A stretch of DNA of 53,100 nucleotides from Candidatus Hydrogenedentota bacterium (GCA_030432675.1 JAUIMA010000001.1:1-53100); one strand, 5' to 3'. Numbered from the stretch's first letter, positions 3,663 to 23,426 are shown. Translations and numbers: made by a program. The notes: generated from the letters alone by a model not told the origin.

Positions 3663-5120
3663 ATGACAACGAGGCCATCGCAAACCATGAAAAAACAACG
3701 ACTCCTCACCCTGTTGCTGTCCGCCATTGCGGTCCTTCTTGTTGCCCTTGTCGGCTATGGGCACTATCTGGGCGAAGAAACCCGTGCCCTGCGTGCGGGT
3801 CACGGCCTGCCGCCCGCTGCGGAACCCTTCGTCCGTATCCAGGAAACCCTCCAGGCCGAATCCATACCCGCGCAAGATAGGGAGAATAGGCGAGGCCCCG
3901 CAGCGCCGGATGAAGCAACCCGTGAACTCGTGGACAACGTTAAGGCGGCGGAAGCCGTACTCACCCGCGCTGACACGATGTTCAGAGAGAACACCGCCTG
4001 GAACGAAGTCTACGACGACCTCTTCAGCCGACCCCAATCGACTTGGAGCGCCGCCGATTGGGCGCGACTCAGCGACGTGTTGGCGGAGAATAGCGATGTT
4101 CTGGCGGAAGTCTACGCCCTCGCGAACGGTAACGGGCCCCTCTATCCCCTGGATTTTTCTCAAGGATACCATCTTCCCCTACCCCACCTGAGCACCGTTC
4201 GTTCTATGGCGCGCCTCCTTCAGGCCAGCGCCATCTCACGGGCCCACAGCGGCGATGAGGCCGGGGCAGCCGCCGACCTCCTCGCGGGCGTCCGCCTGTC
4301 TTCGCGGCTGGAAGAGGAACCCCTCATCATCTCCCAGCTGGTACGGGTCGCCATTGACGCCATCATGTATCAAGGCGTCATCGAATCCTTTCCTCCGGGC
4401 GAGATTCCCCCGGAACTTCTCGCCCAGCTCTCCGCACACCACGAAGCCCGCGACCTCCCGGGGTCCCTGACGGCCATGTGGCAGATGGAAGGCAACATGG
4501 GCGTGGAGTTCATGTCGGGCATCATGAACGGTGGTTGGCAATCGGGCCAGGCGCAATTGCGGGAGTTCTTTCCCCACAGCCAATTTCCCGGTGGTGATTG
4601 GGCCGCCACCATCTATGCAAGCCCCTTCGCACGACCGTGGCAACACCTCGACATGATCGCTTTCGGGCAAGCCATGAACGCCTTCGAGCCGACCCTGGCC
4701 CAGCCCTTTTATGAGGCCCGGCCCATCATCGAAGAGATACAAGGGCATATTGATAGCCTCCCCCGAACCCGGGCCGTCACGCATGGTCTGGTACCCGCCA
4801 TGATGGCCATCCATCGCAGTATGGCCCGCGCCCAAACCTACCAGCACCTCTTGTCGGTCGGAGCCGCTGTAGAGACTTACGGCAACAACAACGGCACCTA
4901 CCCACCGAGCCTCAGTGACCTGCAGGGCGATACCAGCGTCATCGATCCCCACACCGGCGCTCCCTTTCAGTACCGCACTGACGGAGACACTTTCCAGCTC
5001 TACAGCGTCGGGCCCGACCTGACCGATGACGGCGGTGAACACGACGTGGTAGACGGCGACATCGTTTGGCGCGGCACGCGGAAGTCCACGGGCACCACGG
5101 GACTCGTCGCAACACGGTAA
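3663..5120 (+). CDS. membrane-anchored protein with C-terminal T2SS-G (pseudopilin)-like domain
   Basis: ORF 3600-5120. Probable start is ATG 3663 or 3687 (MKKQRLLTLLLSAIAVLLVALVGYG, one TM). The C-terminus GTYPPSLSDLQGDTSVIDPHTGAPFQYRTDGDTFQLYSVGPDLTDDGGEHDVVDGDIVW resembles the GspG C-terminal fold. There is no G/FTLIE prepilin leader. Confidence 0.7.
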   Translation: MTTRPSQTMKKQRLLTLLLSAIAVLLVALVGYGHYLGEETRALRAGHGLPPAAEPFVRIQETLQAESIPAQDRENRRGPAAPDEATRELVDNVKAAEAVLTRADTMFRENTAWNEVYDDLFSRPQSTWSAADWARLSDVLAENSDVLAEVYALANGNGPLYPLDFSQGYHLPLPHLSTVRSMARLLQASAISRAHSGDEAGAAADLLAGVRLSSRLEEEPLIISQLVRVAIDAIMYQGVIESFPPGEIPPELLAQLSAHHEARDLPGSLTAMWQMEGNMGVEFMSGIMNGGWQSGQAQLREFFPHSQFPGGDWAATIYASPFARPWQHLDMIAFGQAMNAFEPTLAQPFYEARPIIEEIQGHIDSLPRTRAVTHGLVPAMMAIHRSMARAQTYQHLLSVGAAVETYGNNNGTYPPSLSDLQGDTSVIDPHTGAPFQYRTDGDTFQLYSVGPDLTDDGGEHDVVDGDIVWRGTRKSTGTTGLVATR

Positions 5121-5384
5121 GCCCGCGAAACTGAACTATCCCGACGAGACGGAGCGGGTGGAACACTCCCTGGTGAATTAGACCGAAGCTTTTGCTTTAC
5201 CGAATCAATTGCGTCATAATACGAGCATACTTGGTCTACAGGATTTGCGTGCTATACTCCCTGAACGGCGACTTTCCACCCCTAGAACAGGTGGAATTCG
5301 GCGGGGCCGTTTGGGCAAGAGCACCTCAAATGCGGCCTGTAGATCGACGGGTGCGGTACCATTTTCGACTGATATTACCTTCCT

Positions 5385-8300
5385 ATGAACGCTGACGCAG
5401 ACCTCCTCATCAGCCTGGCTGGAATCCACGTGGGTCTTTTTCAACCCACCAGTATTCCGGTGGGCAAACCCCATTTGATCGGCTCGTTATTGGCTGAGCG
5501 TCTCGATGAAGCGGCCTTGGCTCGGCTCCGAAAATTTACCGCCGCTCAGTTGACCGACCCGACCTCTACCCTGGAAGTCTCTCTTGCCGCCTTAATAGAC
5601 GAAATGAACGGCATGGATCTGGAAAGCTCGAACGCTGCCACCCTTCCGGGTGGCCTGCCCAGAGGGCTGGATGCGGCCTTCACGAGTGGTTCCATTTCTA
5701 CCGAAGAGCCGGGGCGTTATCGCTTCCCGAAAGAACACGCCCGGGGAGGCATGGGGCGTATTCTGGTGGTTCACGATGAATTTCTCGATCGCCGCATTGC
5801 CCTCAAGGAATTGCTGGATCAGCGTTCGGAGCATTCGGGGGACTCGACGGTAAAGGCGGCCAATCCCGGCTCCGACCCGACGTCGAAGCAGCAACGGGAT
5901 CAGTTTCTCTATGAAGCCCGCATTACGGGCTACCTGGAACATCCATCTATCGTGCCCGTCTATGAACTGGGGCAACGGACCAACGGCTCGCTCTACTACA
6001 CGATGCGGCTGGTCAAGGGGCGGAGCCTCCGAATCGCGATTAAGGAAGCGCCGACGACAGAACAACGCCTTCGGCTTCTTTCGCACTTCGTCGACTTGTG
6101 TCAGGCCATCGCCTTTGCCCACGACCGCGGGGTCTTGCACCGCGACATCAAGCCGGGAAACGTCATGGTGGGTGAGTTCGGGGAAACGGTGGTCATTGAT
6201 TGGGGCCTGGCCCGGCTGGTTCAAGAGGGAGAGACGCCCAATGACGCGTTGTTTGAACCCGATGCCACGGGCGACGCCCTGGCCATCGGCACCCCGGCCT
6301 ATATGGCGCCAGAGCAGGCAGCCGGGGACCTCCGGCGTGTAAACGCGCGCTGCGATGTCTATTCGCTGGGTGCCGTACTGTATCAGTTGCTGACCGGGCG
6401 CGCCCCCTATCACGACCGCACCTCCGCTACAGTGCTTCGCAAACTCCTGGCCGGACCGCCCCCCGCGATATCTACGGTGGCCCCTGATGTTCCCGAGCAA
6501 CTGGCGGCCATCTGTGAACGGGCCATGGCACGAAATCCGGAGGCGCGGTATAGCAGCGCGAAGGACCTGGCCGATGACATTGAGCGCTTTCGATCAGGCC
6601 ATCTCGTAGGAGCGTACAACTACAGTGTCCGTGAATTGGTTTCTTTTTTTGTGTGGCGCTTTAAGGGTCCACTCATCGTGGGTGCCTTGGGCGCAATTGG
6701 CATCGCGGCAAGCATCTTTCTGAGTTACGAACAGATACAGGCGGAGCGTGACCGGGCCATCGCGGAGTCGGAGCGTGCCGTCGCCGCTGAAAAACAAGCC
6801 CGGGACGCCCAGGACTTTGCAGAACGGGAGTTTTACTTCGCCGCCATCGCCAGTGCGCGCAAAGACATCAGCGACGGAAGGTACGACCGGGCGATGCAGC
6901 AACTGGACGCCTGTCCACCGCGCTTTCGCCATTGGGAATGGGGCTATCTGCTCTATCTGTGCAATCAGGATCAACAGACCCTGCAGGCCCACGAGCCTGA
7001 AACCATCTGGTCCCTCGAATATTTGCCGGGTGGAACCCACCTGGCCAGCGCCGGGTTCGACAATGCCGCCCGCATCTGGCCGAAACAGGGCAGTGAACCC
7101 ACGCAGACCTACACCAGCCCCCACGGCGCTGTTATCGAAATCAGCCCCCACCCCTCGGAACCGGTCATCGCCTGTGCCGAGGAAAACGGCTACCTTACTA
7201 TCTACGACTACCAGCAGGGAGTCGTGCGCTCCTCTCGGCAACTGACCGAGGAGGATGTGAATTGCATTCAGTTTCACCCAGACGGAACGCGCTACCTCAC
7301 GGGCGACGATGACGGCAAGGTGCGGCTCTGGGATTACCCCGCCCACACAGAGCGCTATGCGGTGACACTTTCGGACCCCGGGGTAGAGTGCATCGCACTC
7401 AACCGGTCGGGCACCCTCTTCGCCACCTGCGACCGAAGCACACAGATCGAAATCCGGGATACGGAAACGGGGCAGGTCCAATTGACGCTGACTGGCCACA
7501 CCGGACGCAATACAGGATTGGCCTTCAGTCCTGATGGCGCTTACTTCGCCAGCTCCAGCCGGGATGGAACGGCCCGTATTTGGGACCTGCAGACGGGGGC
7601 AACAATCCAGACCCTTGCCGGCCATATATCCGCCGTGTGGGCGGTCCGCTTTTCTCCCGACGGCACCCATCTGGCCACCTGCGGATCGGACCTGACCGTA
7701 CGGGTCTGGGACACGTCTACCTGGCAAACAACGCGCATCTATCGTGGCCATCAACGGCAAGTCGACGCCTTGGCCTTTAGTCCCGATGGGCGCACCCTCC
7801 GCTCCGGCGATGATGCCGGCACCTTGAAAGAATGGGACACGGTGTTTCCCGGACCGCACACCGATATGTGGGCACTCCGAGGGCACAGCGGCACTATCAA
7901 TCACGTGACGTACAGTCCCGATGGCACCGTGCTCGTATCTTCAGCCGGTGACTGGAAAACCAGCGACGACACCACCGCCGGGGTTTGGGATGCCGAAACG
8001 GGCACCCTGCTTAACACCCTCAGCGGCCACGGGGCATCCGTCCGTCACGCGTCTTTCCACCCCGGAGAATCCGTGCTGGCCACCGCCAGTCACGACAAGA
8101 CAGTCCGCATCTGGCAAGGCTCCGACTTTGCAAGTTCCCACGTGCTGGGCCCCTTTATCGCCGAAGTAAATGTAACGGCCTTTTCGACGGCATCCCCCGA
8201 CGTGATTGCTGTGGGCCTGCGGGATGGGCAGCTGCGCCTGGTCAACTGGCGGGATGGCACCATCCTCCATGAGTGGGCCGCCCACACGGAGGAAGTGCTT

Positions 8301-8843
8301 GCCCTCCGTTTCAGTCCCAGTGGCGCGGTACTCGTTTCGAGCAGTGCCGACGAATCGGTCCACATTTCGGACGCGACCTCTGGAGAATTGGTCCGCACCA
8401 TCGGCGACCACGCGTCCCGCGTGCCGGCGCTGGCATTTTCGCCGGATGGAAAGCTGCTGGCAACTGGTGGACACGACTGGCGCATCAACCTCTGGGAAAC
8501 GGATGGGTGGACGCAGGTGGACGCCATGGAAGGCCATACCCAGGGCATTTATACCCTCAGCTTCAGCGACGACGGTCGTCGCCTCCTCTCCTCCAGCAGT
8601 GACGGCTCTTCGATCTTGTGGGACATGGACACTCGCCGCGATGTCTTGTCTATACAGGGCCGGGTAGGTGCCCTGCGCCCCGGATCGCAGGATCTGGCCA
8701 CCGGTATGCCAGACGGCAGTATTTACCTCTGGCCTTCTCTCCCCTGGGATGCCGACGTCTATGCGGATGGCAGCGACGCCACCCTCCGGCTACGTTGTGA
8801 GGCCGAGAAGCAGCGCTTCTGGCAGGCCCGCAACCGCCACTAA
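5385..8843 (+). CDS. serine/threonine protein kinase with TM segment and C-terminal WD40 beta-propeller repeats
   Basis: 1152 aa. Hanks kinase motifs RIALKEL, HRDIKPGNVMV, DWGLA and GTPAYMAPEQ. TM segment PLIVGALGAIGIAASIFLSY. More than 12 WD40-like repeats (e.g. ARIWDLQTG, VRVWDTSTW, VRLWDYP). Confidence 0.93.
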   Translation: MNADADLLISLAGIHVGLFQPTSIPVGKPHLIGSLLAERLDEAALARLRKFTAAQLTDPTSTLEVSLAALIDEMNGMDLESSNAATLPGGLPRGLDAAFTSGSISTEEPGRYRFPKEHARGGMGRILVVHDEFLDRRIALKELLDQRSEHSGDSTVKAANPGSDPTSKQQRDQFLYEARITGYLEHPSIVPVYELGQRTNGSLYYTMRLVKGRSLRIAIKEAPTTEQRLRLLSHFVDLCQAIAFAHDRGVLHRDIKPGNVMVGEFGETVVIDWGLARLVQEGETPNDALFEPDATGDALAIGTPAYMAPEQAAGDLRRVNARCDVYSLGAVLYQLLTGRAPYHDRTSATVLRKLLAGPPPAISTVAPDVPEQLAAICERAMARNPEARYSSAKDLADDIERFRSGHLVGAYNYSVRELVSFFVWRFKGPLIVGALGAIGIAASIFLSYEQIQAERDRAIAESERAVAAEKQARDAQDFAEREFYFAAIASARKDISDGRYDRAMQQLDACPPRFRHWEWGYLLYLCNQDQQTLQAHEPETIWSLEYLPGGTHLASAGFDNAARIWPKQGSEPTQTYTSPHGAVIEISPHPSEPVIACAEENGYLTIYDYQQGVVRSSRQLTEEDVNCIQFHPDGTRYLTGDDDGKVRLWDYPAHTERYAVTLSDPGVECIALNRSGTLFATCDRSTQIEIRDTETGQVQLTLTGHTGRNTGLAFSPDGAYFASSSRDGTARIWDLQTGATIQTLAGHISAVWAVRFSPDGTHLATCGSDLTVRVWDTSTWQTTRIYRGHQRQVDALAFSPDGRTLRSGDDAGTLKEWDTVFPGPHTDMWALRGHSGTINHVTYSPDGTVLVSSAGDWKTSDDTTAGVWDAETGTLLNTLSGHGASVRHASFHPGESVLATASHDKTVRIWQGSDFASSHVLGPFIAEVNVTAFSTASPDVIAVGLRDGQLRLVNWRDGTILHEWAAHTEEVLALRFSPSGAVLVSSSADESVHISDATSGELVRTIGDHASRVPALAFSPDGKLLATGGHDWRINLWETDGWTQVDAMEGHTQGIYTLSFSDDGRRLLSSSSDGSSILWDMDTRRDVLSIQGRVGALRPGSQDLATGMPDGSIYLWPSLPWDADVYADGSDATLRLRCEAEKQRFWQARNRH

Positions 8844-16807: not shown

Positions 16808-17578
16808 TTACCGAAAAACATGTTCCCGGTGATAAGCTACGTATTCGGGATCCGGCAGAAAGCGATGGGGGGCGACAATGGGCTTACCGGCGACCTCCTG
16901 TATGGCTTCCGCGTCGGCACGTGGCAGCGCCATCACCTCCGACGACACCACCACCCGAGACGCCTCATCCAACGTAATAAGACCCCGGTCAAAGGCCCGG
17001 TCGTGAAGGGCGTTGAGACAGAGCCCATTGCGCGGGTCCGTGCGCGCCTCAGGACGTGCAGCCCACGGGACTATGTGACTCGCATTCAGCAGCGACGGAA
17101 CCGCGAGGCCCGTGATGCAACATCGGCTGTGATAGGATTCCAAAACCATCTTGCGGAAGAACCCCTGATTGACCCGCTGCCTCACCAGCGCCTCCCGCGT
17201 GGTGCCCTCCCGCACCACCACCGCCGACTCTTCGGGAGACGCCGCAGCCACCGTCTCCTCTAACGACACTTTCAAGCGCGCCGCGAGCAGCCGTTCACTC
17301 TCGAAGACCATCCCATCCCAATCCGCGAAGAATTCCTCCCACACCGCGCGGTCGAGCTTGCTGGCGTTTGTGGCACCCTTTCGCGCCAAGGCGGGGTCTA
17401 TACTCGCCAAGTTTGCGAGCTTATAACTCACCGAGCCAGGCGTTCGCTCAAGAAGCTCTGCCAATGCGATTATCTTGGGATTGCCGTAGTGAATGCTGCC
17501 AAATGAAATCTTGCAATATAGATTTATCGCAAGGATGAGTTCCTCACGCGCCCATGCTCTGCCACGTGCTGCGCTCAT
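16808..17578 (-). CDS. HNH_2-type endonuclease (restriction-endonuclease-like)
   Basis: ORF 16808-17734. Probable start is ATG 17578 (MSAARGRAWAREELILAINLY), overlapping the upstream stop as ATGA. The C-terminal half CCITGLAVPSLLNASHIVPWAARPEARTDPRNGLCLNALHDRAFDRGLITLD matches the HNH_2 (PF13391-type) signature as I remember it. Confidence 0.8.
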   Translation of the reverse strand: MSAARGRAWAREELILAINLYCKISFGSIHYGNPKIIALAELLERTPGSVSYKLANLASIDPALARKGATNASKLDRAVWEEFFADWDGMVFESERLLAARLKVSLEETVAAASPEESAVVVREGTTREALVRQRVNQGFFRKMVLESYHSRCCITGLAVPSLLNASHIVPWAARPEARTDPRNGLCLNALHDRAFDRGLITLDEASRVVVSSEVMALPRADAEAIQEVAGKPIVAPHRFLPDPEYVAYHREHVFR

Positions 17579-17910
17579 GCGAACTCCATCATTCGCGCCA
17601 TCACACTCTCGGTGGTCCAACGCGCATTTCCTGCCAATGCAAACCGTGCTAGAAACTCGCTCGCGGCAAGATCGACCGTTGGAGCTTTCTCCGTGGGTAT
17701 CACCGACGCGATTTCGTGCCAAACATGGTCGCATTCGCGGTAGGGTGGCTCTTGCAAGTCTTCCAGCCCAACTTCAGACGGCACGAAAAACTCTCCTTCG
17801 TAGAAGTGCTCTTGAATTTGCTCAAACGTCACCTCCCCGGAAAGAATTACCTCGTGAAACAGCTTGTAGTTTCCGCCATCGCGGTACCTATATTCGATGT
17901 GGGTGTTCAT
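17575..17910 (-). CDS. small hypothetical protein translationally coupled to the HNH nuclease
   Basis: 111 aa (MNTHIEYRYRDGGNYKLFHEV...). GGGAGGGA RBS 5 nt upstream of the ATG. Its stop overlaps the HNH start by 4 nt. Confidence 0.7.
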   Translation of the reverse strand: MNTHIEYRYRDGGNYKLFHEVILSGEVTFEQIQEHFYEGEFFVPSEVGLEDLQEPPYRECDHVWHEIASVIPTEKAPTVDLAASEFLARFALAGNARWTTESVMARMMEFA

Positions 17911-18078
17911 TGGTCCCTCCCGATTGCCCTGGACATCGCTGTCTTCTCTCGCCCATTGTATTCATAATATACTGTCTTGAGCAGACAGATTTCACGGTTT
18001 AACGTTGGTGGAGGTTAGCGACGGACGTTGGAAGCGAGTCTACTCGATAGGACGCCGTCGCAAAGCGGAGTGGCCACT

Positions 18079-18357
18079 ATGGACCCTAAATCTTCGAGCG
18101 TAGAGGGAATATATTCAATTTCGGGCAAGCAGGGCTGGGATGCCATAGATATCATGTGGTGTACCCCTGAGGAAGTCGACGGCTATCTTTCCGGTGATTT
18201 CTACGGTGAACGTTTGGACTCCGGTTGGTACTTTGGGCCCCTGGTCAAGATTGGTGAGACGATTTTTGAGGTTCCGCCTCATTGTGAGGGTCCTCGGGGA
18301 CCCTTCGCTACGCGTGAGCAGGCCTTTGGGGCGGCGCAGACCGAGGTCGAAAACTGA
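18079..18357 (+). CDS. hypothetical protein
   Basis: ORF 18028-18357. ATG 18079 has GGAG 9 nt upstream. Divergent from the HNH pair. No motif recognised. Confidence 0.5.
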   Translation: MDPKSSSVEGIYSISGKQGWDAIDIMWCTPEEVDGYLSGDFYGERLDSGWYFGPLVKIGETIFEVPPHCEGPRGPFATREQAFGAAQTEVEN

Positions 18358-18400
18358 TTGTGCAACGCGTGGTCCCAGAGGCTGTTGGCGCCGCGTTTTT

Positions 18401-18529
18401 GTGGGACGGGTGGGACGGTCGAATAGTGAATGATGAATTGAGAATAGTGAATTGACTGTCTCGCCTTTCGGTGCCACATCATCTGAACGACACGGGTCCC
18501 ACAAGCCCCACAGGTCCCACAGGTCCCAC
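18401..18529. repeat. composite hairpin element: 9-nt periodic arms plus AT-rich GAATAGTGAAT module
   Basis: GTGGGACGG x2 (18401, 18410). GAATAGTGAAT at 18421-18431 and GAATAGTGAATTG at 18442-18454. Inverted GTCCCACNN x4 at 18496, 18505, 18514 and 18523. Confidence 0.85.
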
Positions 18530-18549
18530 ACAATCGGGTGAGTCCTACT

Positions 18550-19128
18550 CTACCCCCCTTCGTGCCGCCGTCCCTTTTGGCGATCGCGGACCGCGAGGCG
18601 GGCCCGGGTCATGCGTTCGCGGAGGCCGCCGTGTTCGAGGAATTCTTTTTCGAGATGGCGTAGCTGTCGGTTGAGCAGGTAGGTGGTCTGATGAATCAGG
18701 CAGACGACAATATTCGCAACCGTTTCGGGCGGGCGGGTGGTGAGGAAGGGTTCGAAGGTGGCGAAGCTCACGCCTTCACCTTGACTCAGTCGGCGCACAT
18801 AGCGCGCTTCTTTGCTTTCTTTGTCCCAGAGGGCCCCGTCGTGGGTGCGCAGGTAATCGAGGTAGTCGGCGAGGAGTTCTTCCAAACTGGCGCGGGCGAC
18901 GTTGGTCAGCTTGATTTCCATTTCCATGGAGGTGCCCGCCGCCTGGCTGCCTTCGATGATGTTCTGCTTACCCGAACGCGCCGCCTGAACCATCTGGTCG
19001 TAGGTCCGGTCCCGCTTGCTCAGAAATCGCCGACAGAAACAGACCGTGGCGTCATAGACGATTTCCGACTTTTGATAGGAAAGGAGTTGGGCGTAGCCGC
19101 CGTGCTTTGGTATGAAACCCTCGCTCAT
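18550..19128 (-). CDS. four-helix-bundle protein (23S rRNA IVS / Avd family) with C-terminal suffix domain
   Basis: 192 aa. YQKSEIVYDATVCFCRRF...QMVQAARSGKQNIIEGSQAAGTSMEMEIKLTNVARASLEELLADYLDYL matches the four-helix-bundle plus suffix-domain family as I recall it. Confidence 0.8.
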   Translation of the reverse strand: MSEGFIPKHGGYAQLLSYQKSEIVYDATVCFCRRFLSKRDRTYDQMVQAARSGKQNIIEGSQAAGTSMEMEIKLTNVARASLEELLADYLDYLRTHDGALWDKESKEARYVRRLSQGEGVSFATFEPFLTTRPPETVANIVVCLIHQTTYLLNRQLRHLEKEFLEHGGLRERMTRARLAVRDRQKGRRHEGG

Positions 19129-19207
19129 GATAGCCGCCCCGCTATGGTTGTGTTGTGGTGTACTCCCAGGATGATGCTAGAAACATGGGGCGGGTTTCCA
19201 GTTTTTT

Positions 19208-19465
19208 GTGGGACGCGTGGGACTTGTGGGACCGGTGAGACAGCCGAATAGTGAATGATAAATAGAGAATGAAGAATTGATTGTCTCGTCGTGCGGCAGA
19301 GTCTTGCCGGAGTGAATTTAGAACCCCAGAAACTTTACTGGATTCCCGCATGCGCGGGAATGACAAATCGCCACCTCGAACGAGGTCGTGGGCCCGGTGA
19401 GCCTGCGTGGTCTACCTGACGTCGTCAGGCCGTCCCACAGGTCTCACCGGTCCCACTCGTCCCAC
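19208..19465. repeat. composite hairpin element (9-nt periodic arms, AT-rich module, embedded REP-like hairpin)
   Basis: GTGGGAC/GTGAGAC units at 19208, 19217, 19226 and 19235. GAATAGTGAAT at 19246-19256. ATTCCCGC-ATGC-GCGGGAAT at 19342-19361. Inverted GTCCCAC/GTCTCAC units at 19432, 19441, 19450 and 19459. Degenerate inner arm at 19388-19405. Confidence 0.85.
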
Positions 19466-19496
19466 ATAACTTCAAAAAAGACCCTCGGCCTTCAGC

Positions 19497-20675
19497 CTAT
19501 TTCCATTTAATCTTCGCCACATACACGGAATTATCCGAGCCGTATTTTTCGATGCCCACGGGCTGCATCCATTCGGCGACGCTGACCCAGGTTTCGTTTT
19601 CGCTCACTTTGGTGACGGCGAAGTTACCGAGGCGGGCGCCGCGTTCGGGGACGAGGATGCGCTCGGTGCTGCGGATGACTTGCAGCGTGTCGGGGTTGAC
19701 CTGGGCCATGAAGAGGGGTGCGCGGTGACGGAAGACGTGGTCGTTGTTGGCACCACGGCGGGTGTAGACCAGGAAGAGGCCGTCGGGGTGGGTGACCCAG
19801 TGTTGCTGGGTGTTGTAGGAGCCCAGCTCTTCGCCGTCGTCGAAGGTCCAGGGCTTGGCTTCGTCAAAGTGGAGTCCGTCGCTGCCGCTGGTGACGTAGC
19901 CCTTCACATCGTTGCGGAGGGTAAGGAAAAATCGGCCCTTGTATTCGGCGAGAGAGGGCTCGGGAAAACCGCGCTCCACGGGCACGGTGTGCATGCTGCC
20001 GTGCTCCACGTAGGAGAGGGTGTCGCCGTCGAAGCGGGCGCGCACCACGGTGGCGCTGTATTGTTTGGTGTCTTTCCCCTTGAAATAAATGGGCAGCAGG
20101 ATGTCGCCATTGGGCAGGTCGACGCGCTGGGTGCAACCGGCGCCATTGTTGAAGAAGTAGGGCTCGTCGGGCATCTCCATGTTCTTCCACGTGGACCAGG
20201 TGCGGGCTTCGGGATTGTAGACCGAATAGGCGGTCGTCCGTGCGCGGTTGGTGTGGATGAGCTTATTGTCCTTGTTATACATGGCGGTGTGGCCCGTGCC
20301 CAGGAGCTTGCCGGTGGCGGCGTGCCACTTGGGGGTGAAGTCACAGATGACCGCTGTGCCCCCGTCGCCATAGGGGATGCGCCCGAGGTTTTCGTGCTCG
20401 GTGGGACCGCTCCAGGTCTTGCCACCGTCGTCGGTCCGCATTTCGTTGAGGGCGTAGAAAATATCCGAGCCACTCAGGAGGAGCTTCTGCATGGTGAGCA
20501 CTACCGTGGGCGTTTCCCCCGGGATGGTCCCCGCACGAGGATGGACCCAGCAGGTCTCTTTGTCGAAGCCCGAACTGATGGTCTGCAGCTCAACATCGTA
20601 GTCGACCGGCTCGACGGCCATGGTGGGGAGTAGGCCTAAAATCAAGGCGAGTATCATTGCATGTTTCATTGTCAT
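19497..20675 (-). CDS. secreted BNR/Asp-box repeat protein, exo-alpha-sialidase-like
   Basis: 392 aa. Signal peptide MKHAMILALILGLLPTMAVEP. Asp-box TDDGGKTWSG. Beta-propeller-like composition. Confidence 0.72.
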   Translation of the reverse strand: MTMKHAMILALILGLLPTMAVEPVDYDVELQTISSGFDKETCWVHPRAGTIPGETPTVVLTMQKLLLSGSDIFYALNEMRTDDGGKTWSGPTEHENLGRIPYGDGGTAVICDFTPKWHAATGKLLGTGHTAMYNKDNKLIHTNRARTTAYSVYNPEARTWSTWKNMEMPDEPYFFNNGAGCTQRVDLPNGDILLPIYFKGKDTKQYSATVVRARFDGDTLSYVEHGSMHTVPVERGFPEPSLAEYKGRFFLTLRNDVKGYVTSGSDGLHFDEAKPWTFDDGEELGSYNTQQHWVTHPDGLFLVYTRRGANNDHVFRHRAPLFMAQVNPDTLQVIRSTERILVPERGARLGNFAVTKVSENETWVSVAEWMQPVGIEKYGSDNSVYVAKIKWK

Positions 20676-20693
20676 TTTCCCTTCAAACGCTGG

Positions 20694-20810
20694 TCGAATA
20701 GTGAATTTAGAATTTATAATAGTGAATTGTCTTGCAACCGTCGTGTCGAGGCTGACGAATAGTCTCCAAAATAGCCCCGCTTAAAATTCACTGTTCTAAA
20801 TTCCAAATTC
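20694..20810. repeat. AT-rich GAATAGTGAAT module copy with inverted partner
   Basis: GAATAGTGAAT at 20696-20706, AATAGTGAATTG at 20719-20730 and inverted ATTCACTGTTC at 20786-20796. About 45 nt are colinear with 18419-18465 and 19244-19288. Confidence 0.8.
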
Positions 20811-21197
20811 TTAACCCGCACTCCGCGTGTTCTTTACGATAGCAATCAGGATGCTAACGATTTCATTCGCTTCTGAGGATAGTTCTGCCAACTGCTGCGT
20901 CGAGCAGATTTCTGCGGCTATCAAGAGCCGTAGCCAGTATAAGGTTTCTCGTGCCTCCTTCAATGCGATAGACATTTTCGAAAGAAAGTCCGCGCGACTC
21001 TGCCCGCCTTGGGCTTCCTCCACATTCGCTCCGATAGACGTGCCTGCACGCAGCAATTGATTCGAGAGCGTACGTGCAACGCCCGGATTTTGGTCCAAGT
21101 GCTGCGCCAACTTCACAATCCGCACCGAAAAGTTAAAGGTACGCTCGGTTATGTGTTGTCGCTCCGTCTCCAAAACAGGCCCCCTTTCAAAATTCAC
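20811..21197 (-). CDS. four-helix-bundle protein (23S rRNA IVS / Avd family)
   Basis: 128 aa. SNQLLRAGTSIGANVEEAQGGQSRADFLSKMSIALKEARETLYWLRLL is the classic family signature. The track start is GTG 21197, inside the repeat, so the true start is uncertain. Confidence 0.85.
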   Translation of the reverse strand: MNFERGPVLETERQHITERTFNFSVRIVKLAQHLDQNPGVARTLSNQLLRAGTSIGANVEEAQGGQSRADFLSKMSIALKEARETLYWLRLLIAAEICSTQQLAELSSEANEIVSILIAIVKNTRSAG

Positions 21198-21300
21198 TAT
21201 TCTAAATTCTCAATTTATTATGCCGGCGGGCCGCCGGCGCTCCATAGAATTCCCAATTCTAAATTCACAATTCACTATTCAAAATTCATTATTCTAACTT
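21189..21300. repeat. inverted-orientation copies of the AT-rich module plus a GC hairpin
   Basis: ATTCACTATTC at 21192-21202 and 21270-21280. GCCGGCG-GGC-CGCCGGC at 21222-21238. Overlaps the 5' end of the 4HB gene and abuts the 3' end of the PQQ dehydrogenase gene. Confidence 0.8.
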
Positions 21301-21302
21301 CT

Positions 21303-23426
21303 TCAGTTCTCAATTCGAAACGCGACGTACGCATCGCCTTCGTCGGTGCCCATCTTGCCGCCGGCGGCAGCGGTCACCACATACTGCACGCCGTCGACCA
21401 TATAGGTGGCGGGTGTGGCGTAGCCCCCGGCGGGGAGTTTGGTTTCCCACAGGAGCTTGCCGGATTTTTTGTCATAGGCGTGGAACATCTCGTCTTTGGT
21501 GGCGCCGATGAAAATTACGCCGCCCTTCGTCACGAGGGGACCACCATAGTTTTCGGTGCCCGTTTGTTCGTGGCCTTCTTCACGGAGGCGGGGCGTATCG
21601 CCGAGCACGGACTTCCACACGATTTCGCCGGTGTTCATATCGATGGCATTGAGGGTGCCCCAGGGCGGCTTGATGGCGGGGTAACCCAGGTGATCGACGA
21701 AGCGGTTCCAGCCCGTGTGGCGGAAGATGGGCTTTTTATCGGCCTCCGGTTTTTCGTCGTCCGCTTTTTCATCACGGGGCGCGTCGGCGGCGTAAATATA
21801 GTCGAGGATATTCTTCATCCCCTTCTCCCCCAGGTTTTTGAAGGAAGGCATGAAGCCCTTGCCCGCGAGCATGAGGGCTTCGGCGTCTTCCCGCTTGAGG
21901 CGCTCGCTGATGCCCTTGAGGGGCGGATACATGCTGAAGGGATTCCCCTCGCGCTCGACGCCATGGCAGAAGAGACACTGCTTCGCATAGATCATGGCCC
22001 CTTCACGGAGGGCCGGGTCACTGCCGAGCTGATTAATATCCACCATGGTGAGAATCCACGGCATCTCGCTGGCGTTGATGTAGAGCAGGCCCGTCTCGGG
22101 GTCCACGGCCGCACCACCCCATTCGCCTCCGCCATCGTAACCGGGAAAGACGAGGGTGCCTTCGCGGCTTGGTGGGCCGAAGCGCTCGCGACGGATGACT
22201 TCCCAGCGCTTCATCACCATCTCGCGGGACTCGGGGGTAATGTCGGTGATGTCGTTAAAGTCGAAGGTACTCCGCGAAAAGGCTTCGGGCTTGGTGGGTA
22301 CCGGTTGGGTCTTAGCGGCCAGCTCGCCCTCCAGGTCGGAGGCGGGCGCGGGCACTTCTTCAATGGGGAAAAGGGGTTCGCCGGTTTCACGGTCGAAGAG
22401 GAAGACGAGGGCCGACTTGGTGATCTGTGCCACCGCATCGATCGTTTTTCCATCGTGCTCCACCGTGAGGAGGTTGGGCGGGGCCGGGAGATCGCGGTCC
22501 CACAGGTCGTGGTGCACGGTCTGGAAATGCCACTTCCGCTCGCCCGTCCCCGCGTCCAGCGCCAGCAGGGTGTTGGCGAAGAGATTGTCGCCATGGCGAT
22601 CGCCGCCATAAAAATCAAAGGCCGCCGCGCCCGTGGGCACATAGACCATGCCCCGCTCGGCATCGAGGCTCATACCCGCCCACGAGTTGGCCCCACCGGT
22701 GAACTCATGGGCACCCGCTGGCCAGGTGTCATAACCGAATTCGCCCGGCTGGGGGATGGTGTGAAAGGTCCACGCGATTGCGCCGGTGTGCACGTTGTAG
22801 GCGCGGATATGGCCCGGTGCGGCGGGATGGGATTCCATGGTGCGCAGGCCGATGATGTAGAGGTCTTTATAGACCACGCCGGGGGACGAGGACTCGGCAT
22901 AGATTTTTTCCGGGTCACGGCCGAGTCCTTCCGACAGCCGCACCTTTCCGCCGTCACCAAAGCCCTCCACCGGTTTCCCCGTGTCGGGGTCCAGGGCGTA
23001 AAGAAAGGGGCCGCCGCCATAGAGCAGACGGCGCTGGGTGCCATCGGCCCACCAGCCAAAGCCGCGGCAGACCGACTTCTTCGGCTCATCGGCCGTAAAG
23101 GTCCATTTTTCCTCGCCCGTGGCGGCGTTGAGGGCGAAGACCTTCATGAAGGGGGACACGCCGTAAAGCACCCCGTCGATAACGAGGGGGTTACATTGAA
23201 TCTGACCCACCTTCTTCTCGTCGGCCCCTTCACTCGAATAGCGCCACGCGACGGAGAGCTTCGAAACGTTTTCCGTGTTGATTTGATCCAAGGTCGAATA
23301 TTGACCGCTGTCCGCCCCACCGAGATAGGCGCTCCAGTTGCTGTCCTGTGCGGTGGCCTGCGCGCCCGCAAGGAGCGCCGTGAGGCCCAGGGCCAGTGAA
23401 AGACAGCGCGGTTTTCCCAAAATCAT
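21303..23426 (-). CDS. PQQ-dependent dehydrogenase (beta-propeller) with embedded cytochrome c domain
   Basis: 707 aa. Signal peptide. N-terminus SNWSAYLGGADSGQYSTLDQINTENVSKLSVAWRY is typical of quinoprotein dehydrogenases. Haem motif CLFCHG lies at about aa 488-493. Confidence 0.85.
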   Translation of the reverse strand: MILGKPRCLSLALGLTALLAGAQATAQDSNWSAYLGGADSGQYSTLDQINTENVSKLSVAWRYSSEGADEKKVGQIQCNPLVIDGVLYGVSPFMKVFALNAATGEEKWTFTADEPKKSVCRGFGWWADGTQRRLLYGGGPFLYALDPDTGKPVEGFGDGGKVRLSEGLGRDPEKIYAESSSPGVVYKDLYIIGLRTMESHPAAPGHIRAYNVHTGAIAWTFHTIPQPGEFGYDTWPAGAHEFTGGANSWAGMSLDAERGMVYVPTGAAAFDFYGGDRHGDNLFANTLLALDAGTGERKWHFQTVHHDLWDRDLPAPPNLLTVEHDGKTIDAVAQITKSALVFLFDRETGEPLFPIEEVPAPASDLEGELAAKTQPVPTKPEAFSRSTFDFNDITDITPESREMVMKRWEVIRRERFGPPSREGTLVFPGYDGGGEWGGAAVDPETGLLYINASEMPWILTMVDINQLGSDPALREGAMIYAKQCLFCHGVEREGNPFSMYPPLKGISERLKREDAEALMLAGKGFMPSFKNLGEKGMKNILDYIYAADAPRDEKADDEKPEADKKPIFRHTGWNRFVDHLGYPAIKPPWGTLNAIDMNTGEIVWKSVLGDTPRLREEGHEQTGTENYGGPLVTKGGVIFIGATKDEMFHAYDKKSGKLLWETKLPAGGYATPATYMVDGVQYVVTAAAGGKMGTDEGDAYVAFRIEN

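What the first reader, a model, noticed from the sequence alone, without database searches (positions are those of the whole stretch)
18401..21300. Four-helix-bundle (Avd / 23S-IVS family) genes behave like cassettes bracketed by a shared AT-rich repeat module
Two four-helix-bundle genes (18550-19128 with a suffix domain; 20811-21197) flank an unrelated sialidase-like gene. Each is bordered on both sides by copies of a conserved module of about 45 nt: CGAATAGTGAAT-N8-12-AATAGTGAATTG-N-TGTCT(C/T)G. Copies lie at 18419-18465, 19244-19288 and 20694-20735. Inverted ATTCACT(A/G)TTC copies lie at 20786-20796, 21192-21202 and 21270-21280. The module is strikingly AT-rich in a ~60% GC genome. It overlaps the annotated 5' end of the second 4HB gene and abuts the last codons of the PQQ dehydrogenase gene (…FRIEN). 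This family is named for its occurrence inside rRNA intervening sequences, and it includes DGR Avd proteins. The arrangement here suggests the gene plus its repeats form a mobile or recombinogenic intergenic cassette, or share a common regulatory or RNA element.
Basis: partly seen in the sequence, partly recalled or inferred. Interest (0 to 1): 0.6.

Follow-up and report, generated by a model that had tools for sequence, protein, structure and literature searches.

The report
Repeat-armed four-helix-bundle gene cassettes
Two small four-helix-bundle genes of the "rRNA intervening-sequence protein" family each sit among mirror-image runs of short tandem repeats (7-base for one, 9-base for the other); related genomes have these inserts present, absent, or reduced to the repeats alone, so they are gain-and-loss cassettes of a kind so far described only inside ribosomal RNA genes.

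Summary
The repeats are real, but the "45-nt module" is a tandem array of 7-nt GAATNNN units. It is a dispersed intergenic family: 27 runs in this genome and 24-92 hits in each of five congeners.

These are 9-nt GTGGGACNN arrays forming two homologous hairpins, at 18401-18531 and 19208-19465.

All six four-helix-bundle genes of this genome lie next to such arrays, and each has its own unit. In a phylum sample the repeat period follows the protein subfamily:
- TIGR02436: 7 nt, in 28 of 33 loci.
- TIGR04258: 9 nt, in 19 of 32 loci.
- No locus crossed over.

The cassettes are accessory. Orthologous spacers in congeners are empty, hold arms only, or hold other small genes. The closest relative carries a related cassette directly after the sialidase-like gene, flanked by a 75-nt duplicate of that gene's end. 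This window has that site empty.

No recombinase, DGR reverse transcriptase or Rfam family is present.

Gain and loss most likely run by recombination at direct repeats. That the arrays are the protein's ligand is inference. Arm mismatches show no G·U strand bias, which argues against a selected RNA stem.

This scan has met the same cassette design before on other genomes. I found no paper describing it outside 23S rRNA.

The parts
18401..18531 (.). Hairpin element A. Left arm: GTGGGACGG x2 (18401-18418). Loop: GAATNNN x5 heptamer array (18421-18455), then CTGTCTCG. Right arm: four GTCCCAC-type nonamers (18496-18531). It lies just 3' of the first four-helix-bundle gene.
   Evidence: Sequence and pattern hits. 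The arms pair in the fold, at -46 to -50 kcal/mol with z of -1.2 to -2.1. It is homologous to element B, 58 of 73 bases over the loop and 3' arm (L037).
18550..19128 (-). Four-helix-bundle gene 1, the long 'suffix-domain' type (192 aa, MSEGFIPKHGGY...).
   Evidence: TIGR04258 at 83.3 bits (cut-off 40). TIGR02436 at 26.7 bits. PF05635 at 24.2 bits, below its cut-off. Orthologues are 95% identical in G003 and 88% in G005, and are flanked by the same GTGGGAC arrays.
19208..19465 (.). Hairpin element B. Left arm: GTGGGAC x3 plus GTGAGAC (19208-19243). Loop: a GAATNNN-type heptamer array (19246-19280), then TTGTCTCG, then about 140 nt that include a REP-like palindrome (19341-19365). Right arm: GTCCCAC / GTCTCAC x4 (19432-19465). 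It lies 5' of gene 1.
   Evidence: Together with element A it forms direct repeats on either side of gene 1. The same hairpin-gene-hairpin layout occurs at C554 in this genome and at L103, L106, L107 and L109 in congeners.
19497..20675 (-). In G003 and G006 its 3' end is the site where a cassette inserted with a duplication of the gene's tail. In this window that site (19497) is empty.
   Evidence: No Pfam, NCBIfam or PDB sequence match. Orthologues found. Tail duplicates.
20696..20730 (+). Distal heptamer arm of cassette 2: GAATAGT GAATTTA GAATTTA TAATAGT GAATTGT. It is inverted relative to the arrays at 20786-20813 and 21192-21318.
   Evidence: It pairs with 20786-20813 in a hairpin of -31 to -33 kcal/mol, z about -4 on both strands.
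20786..20813 (-). Proximal heptamer array: GAATNNN x4 on the minus strand. It contains the stop codon of gene 2.
20811..21173 (-). Four-helix-bundle gene 2, the short type. The longest ORF runs to 21197. The likely start is TTG at 21173, behind AAAGGGGG.
   Evidence: PF05635 at 82.6 bits and TIGR02436 at 99.1 bits. PDB 2RLD at E 2e-26. The start is inferred from alignment with the G003 and G007 homologues.
21192..21318 (-). Upstream heptamer arrays (GAATNNN on the minus strand): 21192-21219 and 21249-21318. A GC-rich hairpin (21222-21238) splits them. The outer array supplies the last five codons (FRIEN) and the stop codon of the PQQ dehydrogenase gene (21303-23426).
   Evidence: In five congeners the PQQ gene also ends in repeat-encoded FRIEN, FRIEK or FRIKN.

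Best explanation
The region holds two cassettes of the kind known from ORF-bearing 23S rRNA intervening sequences, here lodged between ordinary genes. Each cassette is a four-helix-bundle gene plus arrays of a short tandem repeat in inverted orientation.

Shown:
1. The repeat period is set by the protein subfamily: 7 nt for TIGR02436 and 9 nt for TIGR04258. The unit sequence drifts together with the protein.
2. Gene 2 is enclosed by GAATNNN arrays.
3. Gene 1 lies between two homologous hairpin elements with GTGGGACNN stems. It is therefore flanked by direct repeats of 130-260 nt as well as by inverted arms.
4. The cassettes are accessory DNA. Orthologous spacers in congeners are empty, contain only the arms, or contain other small genes.
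5. Four insertions in relatives are flanked by a duplicated copy (about 22-190 nt) of the neighbouring gene's 3' end. For the two copy pairs beside the sialidase-like gene (G003, G006), all 16 differences from the working copy are synonymous. At the PyrK-like locus L035, 13 of 22 differences are at third codon positions.

Inferred:
1. Cassettes are gained and lost by ordinary recombination between direct repeats, that is, repeat hairpins or duplicated gene ends. This would work like Campbell-type integration and excision, or like one-sided homologous capture of DNA from a related lineage. No element-encoded enzyme would be needed.
2. Gene loss leaves arms-only hairpins, which make up most of the dispersed arrays.
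3. The arrays are the nucleic-acid ligand of the oligomeric protein, which would explain the subfamily-specific period.

What the protein does for the cell or for the element is not known.
For: - All 6 PF05635 genes in the genome lie next to 7- or 9-nt arrays, each with its own unit family. Among 4643 other genes, 212 have an array on at least one side and 5 have arrays on both sides.
- Phylum sample: 9-nt arrays at 19 of 32 long-type loci and at no short-type locus. 7-nt arrays at 28 of 33 short-type loci and at no long-type locus.
- Inverted arms are detectable at 41 of 61 loci, against 5 of 61 in mismatched controls. Protein identity against unit distance gives r = -0.57 (short type) and -0.50 (long type).
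- Presence/absence at three sites in congeners.
- G003 has a filled site with a 75-nt tail duplicate, 69 of 75 bases identical, all 6 differences synonymous. G006 has an arms-only hairpin at the same site with a 70-nt duplicate, all 10 differences synonymous, plus a third tail copy of about 22 nt.
- The G000 tail matches the upstream G003 copy at positions 24, 30, 42 and 60, and the downstream copy at positions 57 and 63. That is roughly the pattern a single crossover would leave.
- Further tail duplicates occur at L035 (152 nt aligned; the displaced copy spans about 190 nt) and L108 (four copies of an hsdS-like tail).
- The 4HB2-type proteins of G000 and G003 are 75% identical, while their flanking genes are 93-98% identical. 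They are therefore not recent orthologues.
- No recombinase lies within 5 kb. The only reverse transcriptase in the genome is of the group II intron type.
Against: - No movement, circle or enzyme was observed.
- The crossover mosaic rests on six sites, one of which does not fit.
- Tail duplicates flank only a minority of cassettes: about 3 of some 90 loci screened automatically (L035, L108 and the G003 cassette in L013), plus the arms-only hairpin of G006. They also flank a gene that is not a four-helix-bundle gene in G006. They may therefore be a general recombination scar rather than a property of the cassette.
- GAATAGT arrays are abundant in congeners without a cognate gene. G005 has 64 hits and no short four-helix-bundle gene. 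A simple 'protein maintains its arrays' model does not predict this.
- The covariation between unit and protein could reflect linkage alone.
- Protein binding to the arrays is untested.
Confidence: 0.55

Rival explanations
1. An RNA-level element, as in rRNA. The inverted arrays pair in the transcript and RNase III cuts the stem. The cassette is excised from, or insulates, the host mRNA. The arrays exist to build that stem.
For: In Coxiella, a 28-bp stem made of the terminal inverted repeats, next to tandem GACAGAT heptamers, is cut by RNase III (PMC4990558). This genome has rnc at C65. Both genes are co-oriented with their neighbours. Heptamer arrays downstream of genes favour one orientation, 38 to 15. 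The same was reported for Xanthomonas and Nostoc heptamers (PMC4692102).
Against: Arm mismatches that would be G·U on the gene's strand number 49, against 60 on the opposite strand, over 41 loci. So there is no sign of selection for an RNA stem. Hairpin folds are equally good on both strands. The hairpin-gene-hairpin layout does not enclose the gene in one stem. Rfam gave no match.
Confidence: 0.2
2. The arrays are an independent family of dispersed intergenic repeats (REP-, STRR- or G4-like, or regulator binding sites). Four-helix-bundle genes merely tend to land or survive in the same spacers, so there is no cassette as a unit.
For: 22 of the 27 GAATNNN runs in this genome are not near a four-helix-bundle gene. 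Five congeners have 24-92 hits each, including genomes with no cognate gene. Dispersed heptamer and nonamer arrays, often in convergent pairs, were described without any link to this gene family (PMC4692102 and PMC2700814).
Against: All 6 of the genome's four-helix-bundle genes are flanked by arrays, against 4.6% of other genes. The six genes map one-to-one onto the six main unit families. The period tracks the protein subfamily without exception in 47 informative loci. Related proteins in different genera share units. In G003 the arms and the gene were inserted together as one block of about 535 nt, followed by the 75-nt tail duplicate.
Confidence: 0.15
3. The cassettes are moved by a site-specific recombinase supplied in trans, in the manner of an integron or an IMEX element, and the hairpins serve as its recombination sites.
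For: The hairpins are imperfect inverted repeats beside promoter-poor small genes. Serial insertions occurred at one site after the sialidase-like gene in G006. A toxin-antitoxin pair occupies the same spacer in G001.
Against: No integrase lies in the neighbourhood. The arms differ between cassettes within one genome. The duplicated target varies from 22 to about 190 nt and is host gene sequence, not a conserved core site.
Confidence: 0.07
4. Remnants of diversity-generating retroelements: an Avd-like gene lying between a variable region at the 3' end of a target gene and its template repeat.
For: The family includes Avd. In G003, G006, L035 and L108 a four-helix-bundle gene, or its arms alone, sits between two imperfect copies of a gene's 3' end.
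Against: The genome has no DGR-type reverse transcriptase. The only RT is a group II intron ORF. The differences between copies are not adenine-specific, and all 16 in G003 and G006 are synonymous third-position changes. DGR mutagenesis does the opposite.
Confidence: 0.03

Closest known systems
ORF-bearing intervening sequences of 23S rRNA (Coxiella burnetii S23p IVS; Leptospira). Warrier et al. 2016, PMC4990558
   Same: The protein family is the same (PF05635). The gene lies between inverted terminal repeats. Tandem heptamers (GACAGAT in Coxiella) sit at the gene's 5' side and vary in copy number between strains. The element was proposed to be selfish or mobile.
   Different: Here the cassettes lie between protein-coding genes, not in helix 25 or 45 of 23S rRNA. 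The arms are whole arrays of units. A second subfamily uses 9-nt units. Gene 1 lies between two hairpins rather than inside one stem. RNase III processing is untested, and the mismatch pattern gives no support for a selected RNA stem.
Dispersed heptamer and other short tandem repeats in bacterial intergenic regions. GGGNATC in Xanthomonas and Nostoc (Rehm et al. 2015, PMC4692102). Heptamer and octamer 'global regulator sites' of Geobacter metallireducens (Aklujkar et al. 2009, PMC2700814)
   Same: Tandem 7- to 9-nt units. Strongly intergenic. Often just after stop codons in one orientation. Often in convergent pairs at variable distance. Tens of copies per genome.
   Different: Neither paper mentions four-helix-bundle genes. 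The units here are AT-rich (GAATNNN) or GTGGGACNN, so a G-quadruplex explanation does not apply to the first. Here each unit family has a cognate gene in the genome.
DGR accessory protein Avd (same superfamily; pentameric, basic, a cofactor of the reverse transcriptase)
   Same: Four-helix-bundle fold family. The closest solved relative of gene 2, PDB 2RLD, is deposited with five chains.
   Different: No DGR reverse transcriptase, no template/variable repeat pair and no adenine mutagenesis.
C-terminal displacement scars in rhs / cdiA-type loci, and integrative elements that bring a replacement 3' end for their target gene.
   Same: A working gene end is followed, after the insert, by a displaced copy of the same end. 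The displaced copy differs mainly by changes compatible with coding.
   Different: Here the insert is a cassette of about 0.1-0.6 kb without a toxin or immunity gene or an integrase. The duplicated segment is short, 22-190 nt.

Membership tests
TIGR02436 / PF05635 four-helix-bundle protein (gene 2) | Profile match above the curated cut-off over the full domain | tested here: met
   PF05635 at 82.6 bits (cut-off 33.8), profile positions 4-105 of 106. TIGR02436 at 99.1 bits (cut-off 24). PDB 2RLD at E 2e-26.
TIGR04258 four-helix-bundle suffix-domain protein (gene 1) | C-terminal suffix domain above the cut-off, together with an N-terminal four-helix-bundle part | tested here: met
   TIGR04258 at 83.3 bits (cut-off 40), residues 134-181. 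TIGR02436 at 26.7 bits (cut-off 24), residues 18-86. PF05635 reaches only 24.2 bits, below its cut-off. The single-sequence AF2 model is all-helical but has pLDDT 44 and is unusable.
ORF-bearing 23S rRNA intervening sequence | Inserted in a 23S rRNA gene (helix 25 or 45) | tested here: not met
   The flanking genes encode proteins. No Rfam family, rRNA included, matches 18000-21600.
ORF-bearing 23S rRNA intervening sequence | A PF05635 ORF between inverted terminal repeats, with tandem heptamers beside the ORF | tested here: met
   Inverted arms at 41 of 61 related loci, against 5 of 61 controls.
ORF-bearing 23S rRNA intervening sequence | Excision of the stem-loop from the transcript by RNase III | not testable with these tools
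   The rnc gene is present. The indirect test, G·U strand bias in the arms, was negative at 49 against 60.
Diversity-generating retroelement (Avd) | An adjacent DGR reverse transcriptase, and a template/variable repeat pair differing at adenines | tested here: not met
   The only RT in the genome is a group II intron ORF on another contig. The duplicated gene ends in relatives differ only by synonymous third-position changes, and these are not adenine-specific.
Transposon / MITE | Terminal inverted repeats shared by all copies, a short fixed target duplication, and a transposase somewhere in the genome | tested here: not met
   The arms differ between the six cassettes of one genome. The duplications are 22-190 nt of host gene sequence. 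I did not search for a cognate transposase.
Integron gene cassette | attC-type site and an IntI integrase with attI | not tested
   No recombinase lies within 5 kb. I ran no attC model and no genome-wide IntI search.
Dispersed intergenic heptamer repeats (as in PMC4692102 and PMC2700814) | Tandem 7-nt units, intergenic, near gene ends with an orientation bias, often in convergent pairs, many copies per genome | tested here: met
   27 GAATNNN runs, of which 25 are intergenic in a genome that is 86% coding. Sense to antisense downstream of genes is 38 to 15 for the three heptamer families. Five congeners have 24-92 hits each, and the reversed-pattern control has 0.

The most novel reading that the evidence does not exclude
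Four-helix-bundle genes with their repeat hairpins are a widespread class of gene cassette that needs no recombinase of its own. The oligomeric protein reads tandem units, with 7 or 9 nt per unit depending on subfamily. The cassette enters and leaves repeat hairpins or gene ends by recombination, and leaves arms-only hairpins behind. If so, three unexplained things would share one explanation: the 23S rRNA intervening sequences, the excess of dispersed 7- to 9-nt tandem repeats in many bacterial genomes, and the function of the large PF05635 / TIGR04258 family.
Probability: 0.3. Interest if true: 0.8.

Novelty: new variant of a known kind. Interest (0 to 1): 0.66.

Why it matters
PF05635 / TIGR02436 is a very large family with no assigned function apart from its DGR branch, Avd. 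Dispersed heptamer and nonamer repeats have been reported several times with no agreed function; one study proposed G-quadruplex formation, another regulator binding sites.

Three results make concrete experiments possible:
- The repeat period tracks the protein subfamily.
- The unit sequence tracks the protein.
- Gene and arms come and go together between close relatives, sometimes leaving a duplicated gene end.

The experiments are binding assays with defined arrays, and excision assays at defined direct repeats.

There is also a practical point for annotation. In such genomes the ends of ordinary genes (here the PQQ dehydrogenase, ...FRIEN) and the starts of four-helix-bundle ORFs are partly made of repeat units. 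Displaced gene-end copies should not be called as gene fragments.

Tried and rejected
- Rfam scan of 18000-21600 at E up to 1: no match.
- Promoter and terminator scan: nothing beyond chance.
- Single-sequence AlphaFold2 model of gene 1: pLDDT 44, so I ran no fold search.
- G·U strand bias in the arms, as a test for a selected RNA stem: negative. The first run had some minus-strand loci in the wrong orientation. I corrected this, and the result did not change.
- DGR reading: rejected on the substitution pattern and the lack of a DGR reverse transcriptase.
- Translated displaced gene ends, which would explain their purely synonymous differences: neither copy has an in-frame start.
- ORFs inside the non-four-helix-bundle inserts of G005 and G006 at the PQQ spacer: nothing recognisable by eye, and I ran no profile search.
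- Literature searches for this gene family together with repeats: only the Coxiella IVS paper, plus papers on repeats without the gene.
- A strict automatic array detector finds arrays on both sides of only 2 of the 6 genes. The second side at the other four was seen by eye and is more degenerate or lies inside the ORF.


Full report
**Source.** I did not test that.

**Observation.**
- GAATAGTGAAT (up to 1 mismatch) occurs 10 times in the window, all between 18421 and 21294, against 0.4 expected.
- A second repeat was missed. GTGGGACNN, with a 9-nt period, lies at 18401-18418 and 19208-19243 on the plus strand and at 18496-31 and 19432-65 on the minus strand. These account for 12 of the 21 GTGGGAC hits in the window, where about 10 are expected by chance over the whole window.
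- These nonamers form the stems of two homologous hairpin elements: A (18401-18531) and B (19208-19465). The loops of both contain the GAATNNN arrays.
- Gene 1 (18550-19128, minus strand) lies between elements B and A.
- Gene 2 (20811-21197 as the longest ORF) has GAATNNN arrays on its own strand at 21192-21318 and 20786-20813. It has the inverted array at 20696-20730.
- The hairpin 20690-20815 folds at about -32 kcal/mol with z about -4 on either strand.

**The genes.**
- Gene 2 matches PF05635 (82.6 bits), TIGR02436 (99.1 bits) and PDB 2RLD (E 2e-26).
- Gene 1 matches TIGR04258 "four helix bundle suffix domain" (83.3 bits) and the bundle models only weakly. It has no solved relative by sequence.
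- The gene between them has no Pfam, NCBIfam or PDB sequence match, so "sialidase-like" is unsupported.
- The nearby genes encode a PQQ dehydrogenase, an SGNH hydrolase, an aldehyde dehydrogenase, a PRC-barrel protein and an HNH_2 nuclease. No recombinase is among them.

**The whole genome.**
- There are six PF05635 hits.
- All six lie beside arrays of short tandem repeats, and the unit differs at each locus:
  - C404: CAGTTGA / TAGTGGA.
  - C453: GAAGAGT, 13 units.
  - C471 gene 2: GAATAGT.
  - C265: GTGGACGAG.
  - C554: AAAGGACNN.
  - C471 gene 1: GTGGGACNN.
- The three short proteins have 7-nt units. The three long "IPKHGGY..." proteins have 9-nt units.
- These six units are also the main array families of the genome. 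Each has 13 to 62 runs, almost all intergenic, in a genome that my crude gene caller puts at 86% coding.
- Two further nonamer families have no gene that I could find.
- With a strict detector, all 6 four-helix-bundle genes have an array within 250 nt on at least one side, against 212 of 4643 other genes. Only 5 other genes have arrays on both sides.
- The association runs one way. 22 of the 27 GAATNNN runs are not near a four-helix-bundle gene.
- Downstream of genes, the three heptamer families favour one orientation, 38 to 15. Rehm et al. reported the same for GGGNATC repeats (PMC4692102).

**Other genomes of the phylum.** I took the 30 best loci for TIGR04258 and the 30 best for TIGR02436 from 135 genomes, and added the loci of this genome.
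- 9-nt arrays were found at 19 of 32 long-type loci and 7-nt arrays at none.
- 7-nt arrays were found at 28 of 33 short-type loci (two also showed an 8-nt period) and 9-nt arrays at none.
- These genomes are related, so the counts overstate independence.
- Upstream and downstream flanks are inverted copies of each other at 41 of 61 loci. When flanks of different loci are paired, the figure is 5 of 61.
- Protein identity and unit distance are correlated (r = -0.57 for short, -0.50 for long). About half of the pairs at 70% identity or more share a unit within one mismatch. Almost none do below 50%.
- Among the arm mismatches, those that would be G·U on the gene's strand number 49, and those that would be G·U on the other strand number 60. 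This gives no sign that the arms are kept as an RNA stem on the gene's strand.

**Presence and absence in congeners.** I fetched orthologous loci from eight congeners.
- The PQQ dehydrogenase ends in repeat-encoded FRIEN, FRIEK or FRIKN in all five that I read. That array is therefore old.
- The spacer behind it varies:
  - G000 and G007: the gene 2 cassette.
  - G003 (flanking proteins 93-98% identical): identical sequence up to the GC hairpin, then unrelated sequence.
  - G005: arms enclosing about 430 nt with no four-helix-bundle gene.
  - G006: other sequence.
  - G001: a HigB/HigA-like pair.
- At the C453 site, G003 is filled, G006 has an arms-only hairpin, and G005 and G007 have no arrays. 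At the C404 site, G006 has a different nonamer hairpin.
- GAATAGT-type arrays are abundant in all five congeners tested, with 24-92 hits each and none for the reversed pattern.
- A gene 2-type gene at 75% identity or more was found only in G003 and G007. G005 (94% complete) showed no short-type gene at all.

**A filled and an empty site.**
- In G003 a gene 2-type cassette (arm, gene, arm; about 535 nt) lies directly after the stop codon of the sialidase-like gene. It is followed by a second copy of that gene's last 75 nt, 69 of 75 bases identical. The window has the same site empty, with near-identical flanks.
- In G006 the same site holds an 86-nt arms-only hairpin, then a 70-nt copy of the gene end (60 of 70 identical), then another gene, then a third copy of about 22 nt.
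- All 16 differences between working and displaced copies are synonymous third-position changes. Yet the displaced copies have no in-frame start codon.
- In-place duplication followed by neutral decay would not give this pattern. It fits two copies that diverged while each was part of a working gene in separate lineages, and were then joined by recombination.
- The tail in this window matches the upstream G003 copy at positions 24, 30, 42 and 60 and the downstream copy at positions 57 and 63. This is close to what one crossover between the two copies would leave. With six sites and one misfit, it is only suggestive.
- Similar duplicates flank a long-type gene in G116: 152 nt aligned (the displaced copy spans about 190 nt), from a convergent PyrK-like gene, with 13 of 22 differences at third positions.
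- In G006:C446 an hsdS-like gene end is repeated four times, around two arms-only derivative ORFs and one intact long-type gene.
- The gene 2-type proteins of G000, G003, G004 and G007 are all 70-80% identical to one another, whatever the species distance. The G000 and G003 copies are therefore not recent orthologues.

**Interpretation.**
- Shown: the cassette design; the link between period and subfamily; the covariation of unit and protein; the accessory nature of the cassettes; and the duplicated gene ends.
- Inferred:
  - Gain and loss run by recombination at direct repeats. For gene 1 these are hairpins A and B, a layout also seen at C554, L103, L106, L107 and L109.
  - Arms-only hairpins are what remains after gene loss.
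  - The arrays are the protein's ligand.
- The closest published relative is the ORF-bearing 23S rRNA intervening sequence. It has inverted terminal repeats, tandem GACAGAT heptamers of variable number, and RNase III excision (PMC4990558).
- This genome has rnc, but the window cassettes are not in rRNA.
- A DGR origin is excluded. The only reverse transcriptase is a group II intron ORF, and the substitution pattern is wrong.
- Dispersed short tandem repeats of this kind have been described without reference to this gene family (PMC4692102, PMC2700814).
- I found no paper linking the two outside rRNA.

**Earlier notes of this scan.** They describe the same cassette design in many other genomes, and two further cases of duplicated gene ends beside such cassettes. 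I used them as leads to papers and to the TIGR04258 family. The tests reported here are my own.

**Limits.**
- No usable structure model for gene 1.
- My gene calls for the whole genome are crude.
- Several arrays were recognised by eye where the automatic detector failed.
- Most comparisons are within one phylum.

Noticed in passing
window 19341-19365: A REP-like palindrome, GGATTCCCGCATGCGCGGGAATGAC, lies inside the loop of hairpin B. A similar palindrome occurs in the PQQ spacer of congener G006.
   Followed up: no
window 16808-17734 (-): An HNH_2 nuclease gene with a small upstream partner lies about 670 nt from hairpin A. It stays near gene 1 in G003 and G005. I did not examine whether it has any role in cassette turnover.
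   Followed up: no
L017 (G001:C486) about 4790-5512: A HigB/HigA-like toxin-antitoxin pair occupies the spacer between the PQQ dehydrogenase gene and the sialidase-like gene, directly after the heptamer array. This is the spacer where this window has four-helix-bundle gene 2.
   Followed up: partly
L108 (G006:C446), positions 810-2240 of L108 read on the strand of the four-helix-bundle gene: The last ~85 nt of an hsdS-like gene, ending in an ATGA stop/start overlap, occur four times. They separate two arms-only derivative ORFs, one intact long four-helix-bundle gene and a gene that looks DarT-like. The derivative ORFs read through, in frame, into the copied gene end.
   Followed up: partly
own genome C265:12425-12472; also L035 and L108: In some long-type genes one nonamer arm lies inside the ORF, as an in-frame Ser/Thr/Pro-rich linker in front of the suffix domain.
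   Followed up: no
own genome C160:928-1143; C3:14830-15030; C100, C494, C209, C241, C649: Very long nonamer arrays occur: 10 x GTGAGACCA followed by 13 x GTCCCACAA, and 22 x GTCCGAAGC. There is also a CACGAAGNN hairpin family. No four-helix-bundle gene for the GTCCGAAGC and CACGAAGNN families was found in this 94%-complete assembly.
   Followed up: no
L014 (G005:C194) 8160-8480 versus window 18401-18531: The hairpin downstream of gene 1 has its heptamer array next to the opposite arm in G005 compared with this window. The loop may have been inverted between the inverted arms. The unique loop parts could not be aligned, so this is uncertain.
   Followed up: no
own genome C453:7377-7472 and window 21303-21320: Host genes borrow their last codons and stop codon from the arrays: ...KKLFEE* at C453 and ...AFRIEN* for the PQQ dehydrogenase. 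The C-terminal residues differ between congeners as the array changes.
   Followed up: partly
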